A stretch of DNA of 64,000 bases from a virus (IMGVR_UViG_3300029787_004704:1-64000), one strand, 5' to 3'. Numbered from the stretch's first letter, positions 1,362 to 40,627 are shown. The notes: generated by a model from the letters alone, not told the origin. Numbers and translations are program-made.

Positions 1362-1393
1362 AACAATTATGTATATCACCATTAAGTATGTGT

Positions 1394-2242
1394 ATGGTAA
1401 ACAGAGTGATTGAGAACAAATTGGAGTACAAACCTGATGGTGACTGTCATCTGTATCTCTCTATGAACAGGAGAAACCTTGTGATCACTGTGGGTGACTC
1501 ATGGTCATATGGTGACTGTTTGGGTGATCTAGGTTCACATGCATACAGACGCTCAGAAGAATGGTCACTGCACAGCAGTCTGTATCGCGATGCTAGACTG
1601 ACTCACTGTTGGGGTAGACATATGGCTGATGCACTGCGAGCTGATTGGTTCGAAGCCTCCACCAGAGGATCCTGCAATGACACCATACTGCATGAATCTG
1701 AATGGTGGTGTTGTCCAGATGCTGATGAATTCTTGGCACAGTATGATCATGTGTATCTGTGTGTGCTGTTGACCGAACCAGGGCGAGCAGACAGGTATCA
1801 CACACTCACACCAGAACCGGAAGAAATATTACGCACAGAAGAAGCAGACTGCTATCAAAGACTGCGACAGATGATCAAGCGTAGACCCAACACACACTTT
1901 TGGTTTGGTTGCAACATGACTCGATCATACAATCCCATGCACAACTCCAGTTGGAATGGCACACCATGGATGGATGTGATTGCTGACCAGGCCATTGCTG
2001 AACAGGGTTGGTTGAGTGGAGTGGCCACTCACAAATTGAATCGACTGTACATGAAACCCACAGTGAGCAAGTCGCTACAACAGTCTTGGAAACAACATTT
2101 TGTTGATCACACCAACAAGGTAGCACCTGTATGGAAGCATCTACATCAACATGAATTGCACTATGCTGGACACACCTGCCATCCTAGACCTCAAGCACAC
2201 AAAATGTATGCTGACTATGTTCTTGCTAATGCTGGTTGGTGA
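1394..2242 (+). CDS. SGNH/GDSL-like protein
   Basis: VGDSWSYG block I, GSCN block II, C-terminal CHPRPQAH; TAAGTA 5 nt before ATG 1394. Confidence 0.65.
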   Translation: MVNRVIENKLEYKPDGDCHLYLSMNRRNLVITVGDSWSYGDCLGDLGSHAYRRSEEWSLHSSLYRDARLTHCWGRHMADALRADWFEASTRGSCNDTILHESEWWCCPDADEFLAQYDHVYLCVLLTEPGRADRYHTLTPEPEEILRTEEADCYQRLRQMIKRRPNTHFWFGCNMTRSYNPMHNSSWNGTPWMDVIADQAIAEQGWLSGVATHKLNRLYMKPTVSKSLQQSWKQHFVDHTNKVAPVWKHLHQHELHYAGHTCHPRPQAHKMYADYVLANAGW

Positions 2243-2318
2243 TGGTGCCCTCACACGGACTTGAACCGCGAACCTATTGATTACAAATCAATTGCTCTAC
2301 CAATTGAGCTATGAGGGC
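2243..2318 (-). tRNA. trnT: tRNA-Thr(UGU) with encoded CCA
   Basis: GCCCTCA/TGAGGGC acceptor, D arm GCTC..GAGC, anticodon stem ATTGA/TCAAT with loop TTTGTAA, T loop GGTTCAAGTCC, ACCA end; 76 nt. Confidence 0.95.
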
Positions 2319-2813
2319 ATTGCCTTGTGTGTTGAGATGGTTCACATCGCCTGGATGCTGTTGCCATACATGATGATAGTTGTGAGGAATTCTTTCAGTG
2401 TCCTCAGGATCATGGAATGTGCAATGAACAGCACTGTCAATCTGCATCATCTGATCCACTGCTGAGTGCCACACCCACTGCTGATACTCGGCATCATAAT
2501 ACTTTGAGAGATATTGATTCACCAACTGCATCTCTTGATTGTGTTGAGCATGATATTCAACATCTGCCAATATGAAGTCATTGTGTGTTCTGGTATCACT
2601 GTCAGCATGTACAGGATGATGTGGAGTATGCACTCGCCACGGTGAAGTGTGTGCAATCAACACACAGTCATGATCTGCATGATCCTCTAACTGTTTCAGT
2701 ATCTTGTATTGACTCACCCCACGCTGACTGCGATTGGTCACGCTGACACCTAACTGCGATGGCCAACCATCAGTGTCAGCTGAAAAGGAATCTCCTACAA
2801 TCAGCAGACGCAT
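2274..2813 (-). CDS. SGNH/GDSL-like protein; last 45 nt overlap tRNA-Thr
   Basis: LIVGDSF, RGVSQ, DVNHLNTQGNALIAQLV; start taken at MRLLIVGDS. Confidence 0.7.
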   Translation of the reverse strand: MRLLIVGDSFSADTDGWPSQLGVSVTNRSQRGVSQYKILKQLEDHADHDCVLIAHTSPWRVHTPHHPVHADSDTRTHNDFILADVEYHAQHNQEMQLVNQYLSKYYDAEYQQWVWHSAVDQMMQIDSAVHCTFHDPEDTERIPHNYHHVWQQHPGDVNHLNTQGNALIAQLVEQLICNQ

Positions 2814-2817
2814 GTTT

Positions 2818-2943
2818 CTAGCCATTGACGTGACTGATAACAAACACAGCGATCATAAACACAACAAATATGACACAATCTAATCTGTATTTTTCATTCA
2901 GTTCGTATGGTATGAGAGGTTTCTCGTTGTAGTCCATACTCAT
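2818..2943 (-). CDS. small putative membrane protein (41 aa, not in ORF track)
   Basis: MSMDYNEKPL...CVIFVVFMIAVFVISHVNG; fills the gap between co-oriented genes. Confidence 0.45.
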   Translation of the reverse strand: MSMDYNEKPLIPYELNEKYRLDCVIFVVFMIAVFVISHVNG

Positions 2944-2945
2944 AG

Positions 2946-3485
2946 TTATTGATTTAGATATGCCAACATGGTCTCAGCATTGGTCACTTCAAACGGATCA
3001 GGATCTGAATCTTCAGTCAGTCCAGGCTCTACCCACATCTTTTCTATCACACCGTCTGTGATGATGGCTGAATATCTCCATGAACGTGCACCAAAGCCTC
3101 TGTTTTTGAATGTGGTGGCCATGCCCATGCCTTCGGTGAACTCACCATTACCGTCTGGAATAACTTTGCAGTGTTTGATGTCTTGATCTTTGCACCATGC
3201 ATTCATAACAAATGAATCATTTACTGACACACAATACACATCATCTAGTCCTGCTGACTGCAAAGCATCGTAGTGTGCTTCATATCCTGGCAGTTGCATG
3301 GATGAACATGTTGGCGTGAACGCTCCTGGTAAAGAAAATATACCAATTTTTTTGCCTTTGAATAAATCATCAGTGGTTATGTCTTTGAACTCTCCACCAA
3401 TAAAACCACAACCACCTTCTGTGATTGCTTGATCGTCACCAACTCTGCATTTGAAAGTGACTGCAGGTATTTGTTTACCCTCCAT
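2946..3485 (-). CDS. peroxiredoxin (Prx5/redoxin family)
   Basis: SLPGAFTPTCS, SVNDSFVMNAW, RSWRYS; AAGGAGA RBS before ATG 3485. Confidence 0.92.
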   Translation of the reverse strand: MEGKQIPAVTFKCRVGDDQAITEGGCGFIGGEFKDITTDDLFKGKKIGIFSLPGAFTPTCSSMQLPGYEAHYDALQSAGLDDVYCVSVNDSFVMNAWCKDQDIKHCKVIPDGNGEFTEGMGMATTFKNRGFGARSWRYSAIITDGVIEKMWVEPGLTEDSDPDPFEVTNAETMLAYLNQ

Positions 3486-3521
3486 GATTGTCTTCTCCTT
3501 GTACAATTAAAACTTGTGTTA

Positions 3522-3550
3522 ATATTAACATAGCATTTAATTTTTGTCAA
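3522..3550 (-). promoter_or_regulatory. sigma70-type promoter for the peroxiredoxin operon
   Basis: TTGACA-17 nt-TAATAT. Confidence 0.6.
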
Positions 3551-6130: not shown

Positions 6131-8047
6131 ATGCGTCACATATTGCTTAGTCAACCAAATTTTAGAACAGGCCAAGGATCATTTGAATCATACTGGTTGC
6201 CCTATTCTGTGGGGTGCCTATGGGCCTATGCCCAACAGCATGACACCATAAGATCTGCATATACAGTGCGAGACATTGTGTTCCGTAGGCATGACATTGA
6301 CTCATATGTGGGTGATCTTGAGTCAGTGGATGTGGCATTTTTCTCTCTGTATATGTGGAACAGGAACTATCAACATCATCTTGCTCGTGCTGTTCGAGCC
6401 AAGTATCCTCACTGTGTGATTGTGTACGGTGGACCTGAAGTTCCAAATCCTATGCCTGCTGATTGGTTAGACACACACCCATGGATTGACACAGTGGTGC
6501 TTAACGAAGGCGAACTTCCTTTTGTTGACATACTAAACACTTTGGCTGATGGCGACACTGTGGCAACTCAGTATGAAGGGTCTCGCATGACTGATCTAGA
6601 TGTGCCATCGCCCTACACCACAGGCGTGTTTGATTCTATCATTAGGTCAAATCCAGAAGTGCAGTTCAACGCCACCATAGAAACCAACAGAGGCTGTCCG
6701 TTCTCTTGCACATTCTGTGACTGGGGATCACTTACATATTCTAAGATAAAACAGTTTCCTATGCACAAGGTTATGGCAGAACTAGACTGGGTGGCTCGAA
6801 ATCGCTTGGAGTACATCACTATTGCTGATGCTAACTTTGGTGTGTTGTTCAAACGCGACATGCAGATCACTGATCGATTGATTGAACTGCAACAGAACAC
6901 AGGTTATCCTACTGTGGTAAATGCAACATGGTACAAGAATTCATCGGAACAGGTACTGGAGATTGTAAAAAAGTTTGCAGGATCAGGATTCAACAGAGGC
7001 ATGACCCTATCTATGCAAAGCATGGATGACACAGTATTGGAAAATATCAAACGCAAAAACATGGAGATATCCAATCTCAAACATATTTTTGATCAGTGTA
7101 ACAGACAGGACATAAAGAGTTACACAGAACTTATCTTAGGTCTGCCACACGAAACATATGATACATGGTGTGATGGTTTGTGTAGTGTGATTGAAGCAGG
7201 ACAGCATGGGGCTATAGAAACTTGGCTATGCCAGATATTGATCAACGCAGAACTAAACACACCACAACAGAAAGAAGAGCATGGCATATCTACTGTTACA
7301 GTGTATGACTATGTGACTGCCAATTTAGATTCAGATGGCATATCAGAAACTTCAGAACTGATCAATTCAACCAAATACATGAATACGGATCAGATGATTG
7401 AATCATGGACATATGGTTGGATGATCATTAACTTCCATTGTTTTGGTTGGAGTCAAGTGTACACGAGACTAGCCAATCAACGTGGTGTGTCTTACAGAGA
7501 GCAGTATGATCTACTGTTTAAACAAATACGTGAAGATGTTGGTATAGTGGGCCATACATACAGACAAGCAATGGCTACAATTGATCAGTATCTACGCACA
7601 GGCAAAGGTGCATCAGCTGGACACATGATACAGTATCGAGCACAATCTCAATTACATCTGCATCGCGCCGAGGTGATTGCATTTATTGATTCTGTGTTTA
7701 CTGCTGAATATCTCAATCTCACACCAAATCAGTATCTAGATCTACAGCAGTATCAACATGCATACACCACTGATCCAAACGCAACATATCCTTATAGTCT
7801 GCAGTTGAAACACAATTGGCCAGATGTATTGTTGGGAGATGACATTGTGGAGACAAACTCCGGTGAGTATATCGTGGACTGTCTTGAACATAATGTGCCA
7901 CCGGACGAATATGTAAATAGATTGTATTATCGTAGACGTCAAGGATGGGGCAAGTCTGTGATAACTAAAACAAATATAGTGTCCCAAACAGATTCAAATT
8001 GGCAAGCTATTGATTACAAATCAATTGCTCTATCAACTCCAGCGTAA
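6131..8047 (+). CDS. B12-binding radical SAM protein
   Basis: N-terminal B12-like domain (FSLYMWN, YGGPEV), ETNRGCPFSCTFCDWG, DANFG, ELILGLP.ET. Confidence 0.9.
   Translation: MRHILLSQPNFRTGQGSFESYWLPYSVGCLWAYAQQHDTIRSAYTVRDIVFRRHDIDSYVGDLESVDVAFFSLYMWNRNYQHHLARAVRAKYPHCVIVYGGPEVPNPMPADWLDTHPWIDTVVLNEGELPFVDILNTLADGDTVATQYEGSRMTDLDVPSPYTTGVFDSIIRSNPEVQFNATIETNRGCPFSCTFCDWGSLTYSKIKQFPMHKVMAELDWVARNRLEYITIADANFGVLFKRDMQITDRLIELQQNTGYPTVVNATWYKNSSEQVLEIVKKFAGSGFNRGMTLSMQSMDDTVLENIKRKNMEISNLKHIFDQCNRQDIKSYTELILGLPHETYDTWCDGLCSVIEAGQHGAIETWLCQILINAELNTPQQKEEHGISTVTVYDYVTANLDSDGISETSELINSTKYMNTDQMIESWTYGWMIINFHCFGWSQVYTRLANQRGVSYREQYDLLFKQIREDVGIVGHTYRQAMATIDQYLRTGKGASAGHMIQYRAQSQLHLHRAEVIAFIDSVFTAEYLNLTPNQYLDLQQYQHAYTTDPNATYPYSLQLKHNWPDVLLGDDIVETNSGEYIVDCLEHNVPPDEYVNRLYYRRRQGWGKSVITKTNIVSQTDSNWQAIDYKSIALSTPA
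8007..8032 (+). repeat. 26-bp exact copy of a tRNA-Thr segment (matches 2274-2299)
   Basis: CTATTGATTACAAATCAATTGCTCTA at both positions. Confidence 0.9.
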
Positions 8048-8052
8048 CTGGA

Positions 8053-39217: not shown

Positions 39218-40005
39218 TTCCAGTGATCATGCTCCCATTTTACTTTTAATGACTCTTTACTATTTTTAGCATCTTTTCTGTCACCTTTCAAGTGATCCAT
39301 ATATTCTCCTAATTCTGAATTGACGAAGGGATGCTTAGATCCGCGATATCCTAAAAATCTTCCATCATTAAGATCGTTGTCCAAATACCTTGGTGTTGTG
39401 TCTACCCTGGCCGCATCGTATGTGAAAGAATCTGTAAAGCCTTTAAGATCCATCCAAAGATCTTTGTCATAATATTCTTGCCATCTGTCAAAGAATTTTT
39501 GTGCATGTGGCAGTTCAAGATTGAATGTAATAAATCCTGTTTCGGAGAATCCTTTTTTTGGTCTGCCCAAAAAGGTTGAAAATTTATTGCCAGGTGCTAT
39601 ATGTTCTAACCATGTCATAGGAATGTCCTTGTATGTTACTGTATCAGCATCGACAAATATTAATCTGTCTGTGTTACATTTACTTGCCGCGTCTATCATA
39701 CAAAACACTTTCCATGAAAATCTTACAGCATCATATTCAAATGCTGAACGTAAAGGTTTATCCATACGTGCTTTTATATATTCACTGTTTTTATTGCGGT
39801 CAATAAACTCCTGCAATTTTGGTTGTGTTTCTTTAAGTGTGTAATATTCAGTGTTTGGTGCTTCAATAGATTGCACTAGATCATCAGGATAGTATATTTT
39901 TTTTACTTCTTTCGGCCAATATTTCTCAATTGACTCAATACATCTACGTGCATACACGTTCCAATGTTTTGATCCCCATGTTGTTGTTACTGTAAAACTA
40001 GTCAT
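39214..40005 (-). CDS. GT-A fold glycosyltransferase
   Basis: DAVRFSWKVF, FVDADT, SETGF, DHLKG.RK. Confidence 0.7.
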   Translation of the reverse strand: MTSFTVTTTWGSKHWNVYARRCIESIEKYWPKEVKKIYYPDDLVQSIEAPNTEYYTLKETQPKLQEFIDRNKNSEYIKARMDKPLRSAFEYDAVRFSWKVFCMIDAASKCNTDRLIFVDADTVTYKDIPMTWLEHIAPGNKFSTFLGRPKKGFSETGFITFNLELPHAQKFFDRWQEYYDKDLWMDLKGFTDSFTYDAARVDTTPRYLDNDLNDGRFLGYRGSKHPFVNSELGEYMDHLKGDRKDAKNSKESLKVKWEHDHWK

Positions 40006-40627
40006 TCTTTGTTATAAAATCATGCAAATTTTTTGCAATTAATTCATGTCCTTTTTGATTTGGATGATATTTGTTAGGTTTAATATATTCATTATCTTGA
40101 AATTTTGTAAGTTCTAAAGTTTTGTCATTTGTTTTTGCACCAAACATTTCGGTTGCACTTTGCGGCAAAAATTTCGTTGTGTCGATACCATGATATTTCC
40201 AATCAATATTTGTCCAGCCTTCCATGTAGTAATCTCTATATCCTTTTTGTTGACACATTCTCTGTAGTGCTAGGATTGATATGTTTGCTTTGTGATAATC
40301 CAATTGATCTGATTGCACTTCACCAAAGTAAAATTTTGTTAATGCACTTTTATCTCCTGTTGGTCTTAAAATTTTTGCTTTGTTGTTTTCGAAATACAAA
40401 TACCTTGCAGGATTAGTGATAAAAAATACACATATACAGTCCTCTATTTTTTTCTTCATGAAATCATGTAATTGGATAACCAAAGAATCTATTGTGCTTC
40501 CTTGTTCAGCACAATTAAAAAAATTGTTAGTGTTCAATCTTTCATGTAATAGATCACCAAACGCAAGTTCATGTGATGCAAGTTCAGTACCCACTGGCCA
40601 ACTATCACCAAATACTGCTAGATTCAT
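39998..40627 (-). CDS. SGNH-like protein
   Basis: FGDSWPVG, QGST, YHPNQKGHELIA. Confidence 0.7.
   Translation of the reverse strand: MNLAVFGDSWPVGTELASHELAFGDLLHERLNTNNFFNCAEQGSTIDSLVIQLHDFMKKKIEDCICVFFITNPARYLYFENNKAKILRPTGDKSALTKFYFGEVQSDQLDYHKANISILALQRMCQQKGYRDYYMEGWTNIDWKYHGIDTTKFLPQSATEMFGAKTNDKTLELTKFQDNEYIKPNKYHPNQKGHELIAKNLHDFITKND

What the first reader, a model, noticed from the sequence alone, without database searches (positions are those of the whole stretch)
2243..2318. An intact tRNA-Thr also encodes the C-terminal helix of an SGNH protein
Seen: the first 45 nt of the tRNA (GCC CTC ATA GCT CAA TTG GTA GAG CAA TTG ATT TGT AAT CAA TAG) are the last 14 codons plus stop of the same-strand gene 2274-2813 (ALIAQLVEQLICNQ*). 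They follow DVNHLNTQGN, exactly where SGNH proteins need the amphipathic helix after the catalytic His; the paralogue at 39998 reads YHPNQKGHELIAKNLHDFI. The CCA end abuts the convergent gene's stop at 2242. Inference: true dual-coding. RNase P cleavage at the tRNA 5' end would leave a non-stop mRNA, so each transcript would yield tRNA or protein, not both.
Basis: partly seen in the sequence, partly recalled or inferred. Interest (0 to 1): 0.72.

Follow-up and report, generated by a model that had tools for sequence, protein, structure and literature searches.

The report
Phage tRNA that also encodes protein
In this marine phage, the first 45 bases of a working threonine tRNA gene also encode the last helix and stop codon of an esterase-like enzyme; related phages keep the same arrangement, so one stretch of DNA appears to serve both as RNA and as protein-coding sequence.

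Summary
A canonical tRNA-Thr(UGU) lies at 2243-2318 (-) (ARAGORN; Rfam 74.6 bits; CCA encoded). Its first 45 nt are the last 14 codons plus TAG of ORF 2274-2813 (-). The anticodon is read in frame as Cys.

- Every homologue has a helix at this position.
- The gene is under purifying selection (dN/dS 0.14-0.19).
- Independent metagenome runs bridge the junction without indels.

The protein has no Pfam or PHROG match. It folds confidently (pLDDT 93.8) as an SGNH hydrolase (Z 12.2 to E. coli TAP, end to end).

Two metagenomic relatives (81% and 68% identity, dS 0.8 to saturated) keep the same 45-nt overlap. One carries four compensatory stem changes, so the tRNA is under selection as RNA.

On the tree the overlap arose once. 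It was lost once, leaving a 14-nt tRNA vestige, and a helix tail resembling a neighbouring paralogue's took its place.

The tRNA-encoded peptide mimics the family's native tail (6 of 200,000 shuffles score as well).

The expression logic is plausible but untested: RNase P cleavage leaving a non-stop mRNA, in competition with translation.

Closest analogues are mitochondrial tRNA/ORF overlaps and plant t-elements. This scan has not reported the arrangement on other DNA.

The parts
2243..2318 (-). tRNA-Thr (anticodon UGU), canonical cloverleaf, CCA encoded
   Evidence: ARAGORN. Rfam RF00005 at 74.6 bits, full length. All 21 stem pairs are standard in both sequence variants, with 4 compensatory pair changes against L081. 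It is the only tRNA in the 107.9-kb record.
2274..2318 (-). Dual-use segment: tRNA nt 1-45 are also codons 166-179 (ALIAQLVEQLICNQ) plus the TAG stop of the SGNH-fold gene
   Evidence: Sequence and ORF list. The same 45-nt overlap is present in L081 and L084. The peptide scores 12.2 bits against a matrix built from native tails; 6 of 200,000 shuffles reach that score. In the AF2 model it is part of helix 162-177.
2274..2813 (-). SGNH-fold (GDS...NH) hydrolase-like gene, 179 aa, of an uncharacterised marine-phage family
   Evidence: Homologues P0001-P0008 and L081-L116. Invariant residues include G7 D8 S9, G32, H159 and G164 N165. dN/dS is 0.14-0.19. AF2 pLDDT is 93.8. Z is 12.2 to 1ivn, aligned 1-179 against 2-177. 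No Pfam or PHROG hit.
1388..2242 (+). Convergent 284-aa gene with GDS- and H-motifs, whose stop abuts the tRNA CCA end
   Evidence: ORF list. An orthologue sits in the same abutting position in L084 (3144-3992, next to the tRNA end at 3143).
2818..2943 (-). Small 41-aa hydrophobic ORF immediately upstream on the same strand (probably the same transcript)
   Evidence: ORF list. There is only a 4-nt gap to the ATG at 2813.
2946..3506 (-). Peroxiredoxin gene, first gene of the presumed operon
   Evidence: Pfam Redoxin, E 2.5e-24. Matches peroxiredoxin genes of pelagiphage HTVC008M and cyanomyoviruses. L084 has a homologous 191-aa ORF (1102-1677) two genes upstream of the SGNH gene (ORF list).
3522..3550 (-). 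Sigma-70-like promoter candidate (TTGACA-17-TAATAT with TG) upstream of the peroxiredoxin gene
   Evidence: Consensus scan. This is weak: the number of such sites in the region equals the shuffle expectation. No sigma-70-like or TAAATA late-type motif lies on the minus strand between the tRNA and this site.

Best explanation
A functional phage tRNA-Thr(UGU) gene is fused in frame to the 3' end of a functional SGNH-fold hydrolase gene. tRNA nt 1-45 (acceptor 5' strand, D-arm, anticodon arm) are also the enzyme's last 14 codons and its stop.

Shown here: both products are under selection, and the arrangement is old and conserved.

Inferred origin: the family's native tail has the form GN-x-[IL]-[IV]-A-[EQ]-x-[IV]-x-x-L-[LI]*. 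A recombination at a stretch of nucleotide similarity with the tRNA 5' end replaced it. Frame 1 of this tRNA happens to spell an amphipathic helix with the same hydrophobic pattern, so the enzyme stayed functional and the fusion was kept.

Inferred mechanism: the tRNA is transcribed as the 3' end of the peroxiredoxin / small ORF / SGNH message. A ribosome reading to UAG (tRNA nt 43-45) must unfold the tRNA. A folded tRNA is cut by RNase P between 2319 and 2318, with U at position -1. That cut releases the tRNA and leaves an mRNA without a stop codon. Any product of that mRNA would lack the helix and would be handled by ribosome rescue (tmRNA). Translation and tRNA maturation therefore compete on each molecule. 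A message can still be translated first and yield the tRNA afterwards. The tRNA reads ACA, which makes up 54% of Thr codons in the window's long ORFs.
For: tRNA quality.

The overlap is conserved in L081 (81% aa identity) and L084 (68%) at the same nucleotide.

Tree built without the tail: (L084,(L081,(window,(L082,L083)))), supports 100/96 and 99/91. This implies one gain and one loss.

tRNA selection:
- Window and L084 are 76/76 identical while gene dS is above 1.3.
- L081 differs at 13 nt. Four differences are double compensatory changes (6-67, 7-66, 49-65, 52-62) and one is U-A to U-G.
- All pairs remain standard in both versions.

Gene selection: dN/dS is 0.14-0.19.

The helix is universal in the family. 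27 of 31 outgroup proteins end exactly 11 residues after GN.

Mimicry:
- The tail scores 12.2 bits; 6 of 200,000 shuffles and 5 of 127,934 window 33-mers score as high.
- No other frame or offset of the tRNA scores above 0.
- Native tails already share 17-19 of 33 nt with the tRNA 5' end. I count 12 of the first 15 for L112 against the L081-type tRNA.

After the tRNA was lost, L082 and L083 keep its first 14 nt. L083 carries a new tail resembling the tail of its upstream paralogue, not a truncation.

Structure:
- SGNH fold, with helix 162-177 at pLDDT 88-98.
- In the model without the 14 residues, confidence over residues 151-165 falls from 97-98 to 64-53. That stretch carries the catalytic His159, and strand 154-157 is lost.

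The DNA is right: contigs of independent runs X2 and X8 cover 2291-2900 and 2292-2900 with 1-2 substitutions and no indel.

No internal promoter-like site lies inside the gene. ACA usage is 54%.
Against: There is no direct expression data. The RNA-library contigs cover only the gene interior (2366-2709 and 2392-2605), not the junction. Contigs also cannot show RNA ends or strand.

Protein-level selection on the 14 overlapped codons cannot be separated from tRNA constraint. The only 3 differences there (2 synonymous, 1 Ile to Val) would be conservative whatever the base.

Only three independent sequences with the overlap have DNA available. No further case turned up in IMG/VR or in GenBank phages.

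The replacement tails of L082 and L083 score about 0 on the native-tail matrix, so the enzyme may tolerate varied tails.

The Asp of the DxxH block is not conserved across the family, so the catalytic chemistry is unproven.

The promoter assignment is weak.
Confidence: 0.75

Rival explanations
1. Accidental, tolerated fusion. The tRNA is the only selected element in 2243-2318. The enzyme merely tolerates whatever tail the tRNA imposes, or works without a defined tail. On this reading the overlap exists in the DNA but is not dual-functional in any meaningful sense.
For: No test can show protein-level selection inside the overlap. The tails of L082 and L083 after tRNA loss are unlike the native consensus, scoring about 0, which suggests tolerance.
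Against: The helix is present in every family member, and its length is fixed in 27 of 31 outgroup proteins. The tRNA-coded tail fits the native pattern far better than chance, about 3e-5. The truncated model loses confidence around the catalytic His. When the tRNA was lost, a paralogue-like helix tail took its place rather than an early stop. The gene stayed under purifying selection throughout the overlap-bearing clade.
Confidence: 0.14
2. The tRNA-shaped sequence is no longer used in translation. It serves as a coding tail plus an RNA processing or stability element, like a plant mitochondrial t-element, that defines or protects the mRNA 3' end.
For: It sits at the 3' end of an operon with no recognisable terminator. 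t-elements at ORF ends are known in plant mitochondria (PMC1920247).
Against: The cloverleaf is perfect at 74.6 bits, the CCA is encoded, and the anticodon loop is intact. G1-C72 and C2-G71, known from E. coli work as Thr identity elements (my own knowledge), are present. It is the only tRNA of the record and matches the phage's commonest Thr codon. A second copy at about 8 kb was allowed to decay while this one stayed intact.
Confidence: 0.07
3. Artefact or pseudogene: an assembly or sequencing error hides the true stop, or the ORF is a decaying remnant read through into the tRNA.
For: None found. Many spurious ORFs over tRNAs carry AQLVE-type peptides.
Against: Contigs from independent studies reproduce 2291-2900 without indels. 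Fourteen runs hold at least half of the stretch's sampled words, and all holders together come from 13 studies. Relatives at 68-81% identity keep the frame open to the same stop. dN/dS is 0.14-0.19.
Confidence: 0.02

Closest known systems
t-elements inside the ccmC and nad6 reading frames of Arabidopsis mitochondria (Forner et al. 2007, PMC1920247)
   Same: A tRNA-shaped structure on the same strand overlaps the 3' end of an ORF. RNase P cleavage at its 5' end gives mRNAs whose 3' ends lie before the stop codon (ccmC -46, nad6 -17). This is exactly the processing consequence proposed here.
   Different: t-elements are degenerate and are not decoding tRNAs. Their ORF tails are not shown to be a conserved structural element. 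They occur in organelles, not in a phage. Here the element is a canonical tRNA with an intact anticodon, and the overlapped codons replace a conserved helix.
tRNA/protein-gene overlaps in metazoan mitochondrial genomes (for example 14, 19 and 28 nt in Aphrocallistes vastus; proposed simultaneous tRNA and protein coding; bioRxiv 10.1101/001875)
   Same: The overlap is on the same strand, between a tRNA gene and the end or interior of a protein-coding gene, inside a polycistronic transcript.
   Different: Most of those overlaps are short, involve reduced 'bizarre' tRNAs, and are often resolved by re-annotation or truncated stop codons. The author states that no general mechanism is known. Here the overlap is 45 of 76 nt of a full-size tRNA, with compensatory-change evidence and a protein-structure rationale.
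tmRNA (SsrA)
   Same: One RNA gene combines a tRNA-like part with a translated reading frame. tmRNA would also be the expected rescuer of the non-stop mRNA left after RNase P cleavage (textbook knowledge).
   Different: In tmRNA the tRNA-like and mRNA-like parts are separate segments, and the ORF encodes a degradation tag. Here the very same nucleotides are tRNA body and enzyme codons.
E. coli TAP/TesA and other SGNH (GDSL) hydrolases
   Same: The fold matches: Z 12.2, rmsd 2.6 A over 130 residues, aligned end to end with 1ivn. Ser (GDS), Gly, Asn and His blocks are present, and a terminal helix follows the catalytic His.
   Different: There is no sequence-profile match to any Pfam family or PDB sequence. 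The Asp of DxxH is not conserved in the family. The substrate is unknown.
tRNA genes of T4-like marine myoviruses (Limor-Waisberg et al. 2011, PMC3152331)
   Same: Like the phage-encoded tRNAs tied to translation efficiency in T4-like cyanomyoviruses (abstract), this tRNA matches a codon the phage favours: ACA is 54% of Thr codons, and the window is 38% GC.
   Different: Those tRNAs are free-standing genes, usually in clusters. This one is the only tRNA in 108 kb and is embedded in a coding sequence.

Membership tests
Canonical elongator tRNA-Thr | Cloverleaf with conserved D- and T-loop nucleotides, scoring above the Rfam/ARAGORN thresholds | tested here: met
   ARAGORN call. RF00005 at 74.6 bits against a gathering score of 29, model positions 1-71. 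All 21 pairs are standard.
Canonical elongator tRNA-Thr | Thr anticodon, plus the G1-C72 and C2-G71 acceptor pairs (ThrRS identity elements in E. coli; from my own knowledge) | tested here: met
   Anticodon UGU at positions 34-36. G1-C72 and C2-G71 are invariant in all three sequences. Whether the unknown host's ThrRS uses them was not tested.
Canonical elongator tRNA-Thr | Evolutionary maintenance of the structure (compensatory substitutions) | tested here: met
   Four pairs change on both sides and one on one side between the window/L084 version and the L081 version. None is broken. The sample is only 2 distinct sequences.
Canonical elongator tRNA-Thr | Processing, modification and aminoacylation in vivo | not testable with these tools
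   Only assembled contigs were available from RNA libraries, and they do not cover the tRNA junction.
SGNH (GDSL) hydrolase superfamily | Block I: GDS with the nucleophile Ser near the N-terminus | tested here: met
   G7 D8 S9 are invariant in 35 sequences.
SGNH (GDSL) hydrolase superfamily | Block II Gly and block III Asn (oxyanion hole) | tested here: met
   G32 is invariant. N78 is at least 90% conserved, next to invariant D79. Assignment to the blocks rests on position in the fold alignment and was not checked residue by residue.
SGNH (GDSL) hydrolase superfamily | Block V: DxxH with the catalytic His (and Asp) | tested here: inconclusive
   H159 is invariant, and the window has D156-x-x-H159. 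In relatives the Asp position is N, Q, E, T or I, so a full Ser-His-Asp triad is not a family feature.
SGNH (GDSL) hydrolase superfamily | Three-layer alpha/beta/alpha SGNH fold | tested here: met
   AF2 pLDDT 93.8. All top Foldseek and VIA hits are SGNH/GDSL enzymes. Z is 12.2 to 1ivn over model residues 1-179.
SGNH (GDSL) hydrolase superfamily | Match to a curated sequence family (Pfam Lipase_GDSL families, PHROGs) | tested here: not met
   No Pfam family matches better than E = 0.18, and that one is unrelated. No PHROG matches. The family profile finds no PDB sequence. The protein therefore belongs to the superfamily by fold and motifs, not to any named family.
True dual-coding (RNA gene plus protein gene on the same nucleotides) | Both overlapping products are independently under purifying selection | tested here: met
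   tRNA. Non-overlapped part of the CDS: dN/dS 0.14-0.19. The overlap is retained across dS of 0.8 to saturation.
True dual-coding (RNA gene plus protein gene on the same nucleotides) | The overlapped codons themselves matter for the protein | tested here: inconclusive
   Indirect support comes from the universal helix, the mimicry p of about 3e-5, the loss of confidence in the truncated model and the tail replacement after tRNA loss. There is no direct substitution-based test, because only 3 differences exist and all are uninformative.
t-element-type processing (RNase P cut inside an ORF giving a stop-less mRNA) | Mapped mRNA 3' end at the tRNA 5' end, with release of the tRNA | not testable with these tools
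   No raw RNA reads were available. Contigs show neither ends nor strand.

The most novel reading that the evidence does not exclude
The overlap is a built-in switch, not just compaction. On every transcript, ribosome passage (which unfolds the tRNA) and RNase P cleavage (which removes the stop codon and the helix codons) exclude each other. The phage thereby couples output of its only tRNA, for its commonest Thr codon, inversely to output of the SGNH enzyme. Cleaved messages are cleared through tmRNA-mediated rescue. It would be the first case in a virus of bacteria where a canonical tRNA body, anticodon included, is itself translated as a structural element of an enzyme, with regulatory consequences.
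Probability: 0.25. Interest if true: 0.85.

Novelty: new variant of a known kind. Interest (0 to 1): 0.66.

Why it matters
Gene finders and, to my knowledge, annotation practice treat ORFs that run into tRNA genes as errors, so cases like this are discarded systematically.

Here comparative evidence indicates that a full-size, canonical tRNA and an enzyme share 45 nucleotides. That evidence is compensatory tRNA changes, purifying selection on the gene, conservation of the junction, and a structural rationale.

It gives a clean system, open to experiment, for three questions:
- How does a cell partition one transcript between translation and tRNA maturation?
- What happens to the non-stop mRNA that RNase P leaves behind?
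- How can an RNA gene be co-opted as protein sequence? Frame 1 of the common D-arm spells an amphipathic helix.

It also shows how such fusions arise and dissolve by recombination. One lineage retains a 14-nt tRNA vestige and a tail resembling a paralogue's.

Tried and rejected
DNA for clusters P0002, P0003 and P0005 could therefore be reached only indirectly, through the single metagenome scan.

GenBank phage collection: no protein match to the gene. The DNA search found only the peroxiredoxin gene and generic tRNA-Thr hits.

IMG/VR:
- The 80 kept relatives are all 35% identical or less.
- None of the 60 scanned has a tRNA next to the gene.
- A junction-pattern scan returned 57 tRNAs, none fused to this gene.

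Pfam, PHROGs and a profile search of PDB sequences gave no family.

RNA evidence:
- Two metatranscriptome runs hold contigs only from the interior of the gene.
- Nothing can be concluded about transcription across the junction, RNA ends or strand.
- The very high depth over 2240-2340 in all runs comes from other organisms' tRNAs.

I considered that L082 might carry the ancestral native tail, because it has the same length as the outgroup tails. I rejected this. L082 and L083 are nested inside the overlap-bearing clade, they keep 14 nt of the tRNA, and their tails score about 0 on the native-tail matrix.

I considered an attP-like or integration-scar origin. I rejected it because the tRNA is complete and the overlap involves its 5' half.

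The plus-strand Rfam hit to Plastid-ycf2 (33 bits, below its 65.7 threshold) is the antisense of the tRNA and means nothing.

The drop in confidence is a modelling result, not proof of instability.

Complex prediction, the protein atlas and the representative-protein search were not needed.

Full report
**1. What is there**

The minus strand of 2243-2318 is a canonical tRNA-Thr with anticodon UGU.
- ARAGORN calls it.
- The Rfam tRNA model scores 74.6 bits over its full length.
- The 3' CCA is in the DNA.
- It is the only tRNA in the window, and the only one in the 107,868-bp IMG/VR virus record that holds the window.

An ORF on the same strand runs from the ATG at 2813 to a TAG at 2276-2274. 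An alternative start lies at 2825. The start at 2813 matches L081, which has an in-frame stop just upstream of its own start.

The last 14 codons and the stop of this ORF are tRNA nt 1-45. The peptide ALIAQLVEQLICNQ* is spelled by the acceptor 5' strand, the D-arm and the anticodon arm. The anticodon UGU is read as Cys. The stop is nt 43-45, at the 3' end of the anticodon stem.

The convergent ORF 1388-2242 ends exactly where the CCA ends.

**2. The gene is real, and it is an SGNH-fold protein**

Pfam and PHROGs give no match. The large protein database holds a family: eight clusters at 34-99% identity. The metagenome scan returned 37 loci and IMG/VR returned 238, of which 80 were kept.

Invariant residues are G7-D8-S9, G32, H55, S57, H159 and G164-N165. 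N78 is nearly invariant.

Pairwise dN/dS among the five closest sequences is 0.12-0.19. dS ranges from 0.8 to saturation for the pairs that carry the overlap.

An AlphaFold model built on 35 sequences has mean pLDDT 93.8. All top structural matches are SGNH/GDSL hydrolases. The best is E. coli thioesterase I/TAP 1ivn: Z 12.2, rmsd 2.6 A, 130 residues, model 1-179 against chain 2-177. The alignment therefore runs to the end of both chains, and the model's last element is helix 162-177.

The Asp of the DxxH block is present in the window (D156) but not conserved in the family. The chemistry may therefore rest on a Ser-His dyad.

**3.

(a) Homologues do not end before the helix. All have one, and 27 of 31 outgroup proteins end exactly 11 residues after the invariant GN. 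The pattern is x-[IL]-[IV]-A-[EQKD]-x-[IV]-x-x-[LI]-[LI].

(b) There is no pseudogene decay.

(c) There is no hidden stop. Fourteen public runs hold at least half of the stretch's sampled words, and all holders together come from 13 studies. Contigs of two independent DNA runs cover 2291-2900 and 2292-2900 with 1-2 substitutions and no indel.

**4. The overlap is conserved, and the tRNA is selected as RNA**

L081 (81% protein identity) and L084 (68%) have a tRNA-Thr(UGU) starting at the same codon, with the same 45-nt overlap and the same stop. L084 also keeps the convergent gene abutting the CCA.

The L084 tRNA is 76/76 identical to the window's, although synonymous sites in the adjoining gene are saturated. 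The 31 nt that do not code for protein are among those identical bases.

The L081 tRNA differs at 13 positions:
- Pairs 6-67, 7-66, 49-65 and 52-62 changed on both sides.
- Pair 5-68 went from U-A to U-G.
- All 21 pairs remain standard in both versions.

Inside the 45 shared nucleotides there are only three differences: CTC to CTA (synonymous), ATA to GTA (Ile to Val) and CAA to CAG (synonymous). These do not discriminate. Any base at those sites would give a synonymous or hydrophobic change, or a mild Gln-to-His change at the third. Protein-level selection on the overlapped codons therefore cannot be shown from substitutions.

**5. History**

A maximum-likelihood tree was built without the tail columns. 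It gives (L084,(L081,(window,(L082,L083)))), with 100/96 support for the five-sequence clade and 99/91 for the inner four.

L082 and L083 have no tRNA. They still read GCCCTTGTAGCTCA, the first 14 nt of the tRNA, right after the GN codons, and then diverge. The economical reading is one gain at the base of the clade and one loss.

In L083 the new tail (..MFTAEVKRRGWL*) resembles, in protein and in DNA, the tail of the SGNH-like paralogue immediately upstream (..MFYAEVKRRGWI*). A helix tail of that kind was therefore put in place of the tRNA. Both replacement tails score about 0 on a matrix of native tails. L082 is thus not a surviving ancestral form.

None of the more distant relatives has a tRNA next to the gene: 33 metagenome loci and 60 viral loci were scanned.

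**6. Why the fusion could work**

A position matrix was built from 24 distinct native tails. The tRNA-encoded 11-mer ALIAQLVEQLI scores 12.2 bits on it.
- Only 6 of 200,000 shuffles of the tRNA score as high.
- Only 5 of 127,934 33-mers in the window score as high.
- No other offset or strand of the tRNA scores above zero.

All six conserved positions of the tail are matched (L, I, A, V, L, I).

Native tails already share 17-19 of 33 nucleotides with the tRNA 5' end. By my count, L112 reads GCC TTA GTA GCA CAA against GCC CTA GTA GCT CAG, which is 12 of 15.

I infer that a recombination at this similarity replaced the native tail with the tRNA in register. The result survived because the D-arm in frame 1 spells an amphipathic helix.

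The model without the 14 residues supports a structural role. Confidence over residues 151-165 drops from 97-98 to 64-53. That segment carries N158-H159, and strand 154-157 disappears. This is a modelling result only.

**7. How it probably works (inferred)**

On the minus strand, no sigma-70-like site and no TAAATA late-type motif lies between the tRNA and a promoter-like site at 3550-3522, upstream of the peroxiredoxin gene. No terminator-like site follows the tRNA.

The tRNA is therefore most likely the 3' end of a peroxiredoxin / 41-aa ORF / SGNH transcript.

RNase P would cut between 2319 and 2318. The -1 base is U, from the invariant Asn codon AAT. The cut would release the tRNA and leave an mRNA that ends at ...GGC AAU with no stop codon. 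That is a substrate for ribosome rescue, and its product would lack the helix.

Conversely, a ribosome reading to UAG at nt 43-45 must melt the acceptor, D and anticodon stems, and it covers the T-arm. Folding for RNase P and translation thus exclude each other at any one moment.

A message may be translated several times and then yield the tRNA.

The tRNA reads ACA, which is 54% of Thr codons in 59 long ORFs of this 38%-GC window. This fits the described role of tRNAs in T4-like marine myoviruses (PMC3152331, abstract).

A second tRNA-Thr copy at about 7985-8050 (-) has decayed. It keeps 26 nt identical to the D-stem 3' side plus the anticodon arm. Its T-arm is degraded and resembles L081's, and it has lost the acceptor and 5' D-stem. 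The embedded copy is the one that was retained.

**8. Comparison with what is known**

The nearest analogues are in organelles.
- In Arabidopsis mitochondria, t-elements overlap the ends of ccmC and nad6. RNase P produces mRNAs ending 46 and 17 nt before the stop codon (PMC1920247). Those elements are not decoding tRNAs.
- In metazoan mitochondria, same-strand tRNA/protein overlaps of 14-28 nt are accepted. 'Simultaneous tRNA and protein coding' has been proposed on weaker evidence (bioRxiv 10.1101/001875).

My literature searches found no description of a canonical tRNA whose body and anticodon encode a conserved structural element of an enzyme in a phage or bacterium. That is absence in a limited library, not proof.

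Among 57 IMG/VR loci with the same tRNA type, none has an ORF of 100 aa or more ending deep in the tRNA. One (L162) has a 181-aa ORF ending 10 nt in.

**9. Verdict**

The dual-coding interpretation is supported by comparative and structural evidence (confidence about 0.75). The expression mechanism is plausible but untested.

I class it as a new variant of a known kind, namely tRNA/ORF overlap with RNase P-dependent stop-less mRNA. It is notable for the canonical tRNA, the depth of the overlap, the helix mimicry, and the traceable gain and loss.

This scan has not reported the same arrangement on other DNA.

Noticed in passing
window 7985-8050 (-), inside the 3' end of ORF 6131-8047 (+): A decayed second copy of tRNA-Thr(UGU). 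It keeps 26 nt identical to 2274-2299 (D-stem 3' side plus the whole anticodon arm). Its T-arm is degraded and resembles the L081 allele (GAATCTGT). The acceptor stem is lost. It lies antisense to the C-terminal codons of the long, reportedly radical-SAM ORF. ARAGORN does not call it.
   Followed up: partly
L083:1630-1663 versus L083:1075-1112: In a relative that lost the tRNA, the gene's new C-terminal tail (MFTAEVKRRGWL*) resembles the tail of the adjacent upstream SGNH-like paralogue (MFYAEVKRRGWI*), so tail swapping between paralogues looks likely. Directly before the new tail, 14 nt of the tRNA remain as codons ALVAQ.
   Followed up: yes
window 1388-2242 (+) and 39998-40627 (-); L081:1769-2500, L084:1779-2576, L083:273-1112: These phages carry several different GDS...H-motif (SGNH-like) genes with no Pfam or PHROG match, often next to each other. 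BLASTP detects no similarity between the convergent neighbour 1388-2242 and the tRNA-fused gene.
   Followed up: partly
L162 (IMGVR_UViG_3300032218_002454), tRNA at about 5596: A 181-aa ORF ends 10 nt inside a tRNA of the same sequence type, using U8-A9-G10 as its TAG stop. This may be a second, shallower tRNA/ORF overlap. The ORF was not characterised.
   Followed up: no
window 1-64000: ACA makes up 54% of Thr codons in 59 long ORFs, and GC is 38%. The record (107,868 bp, estimated 26% complete by CheckV) carries a single tRNA, the one that reads ACA.
   Followed up: partly
window 2245-2318 (+): The plus strand gives a sub-threshold Rfam hit to Plastid-ycf2 5'UTR RNA (33.3 bits against a gathering score of 65.7). 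It is the antisense of the tRNA and is not a real element.
   Followed up: yes
L083:1820-2623 (-): Downstream of the tRNA-less relative's gene lies a 267-aa ORF with a GHSLGAA motif (class-3 lipase-like). The window has the convergent SGNH-like gene at the corresponding position, so the neighbourhood is mosaic.
   Followed up: no
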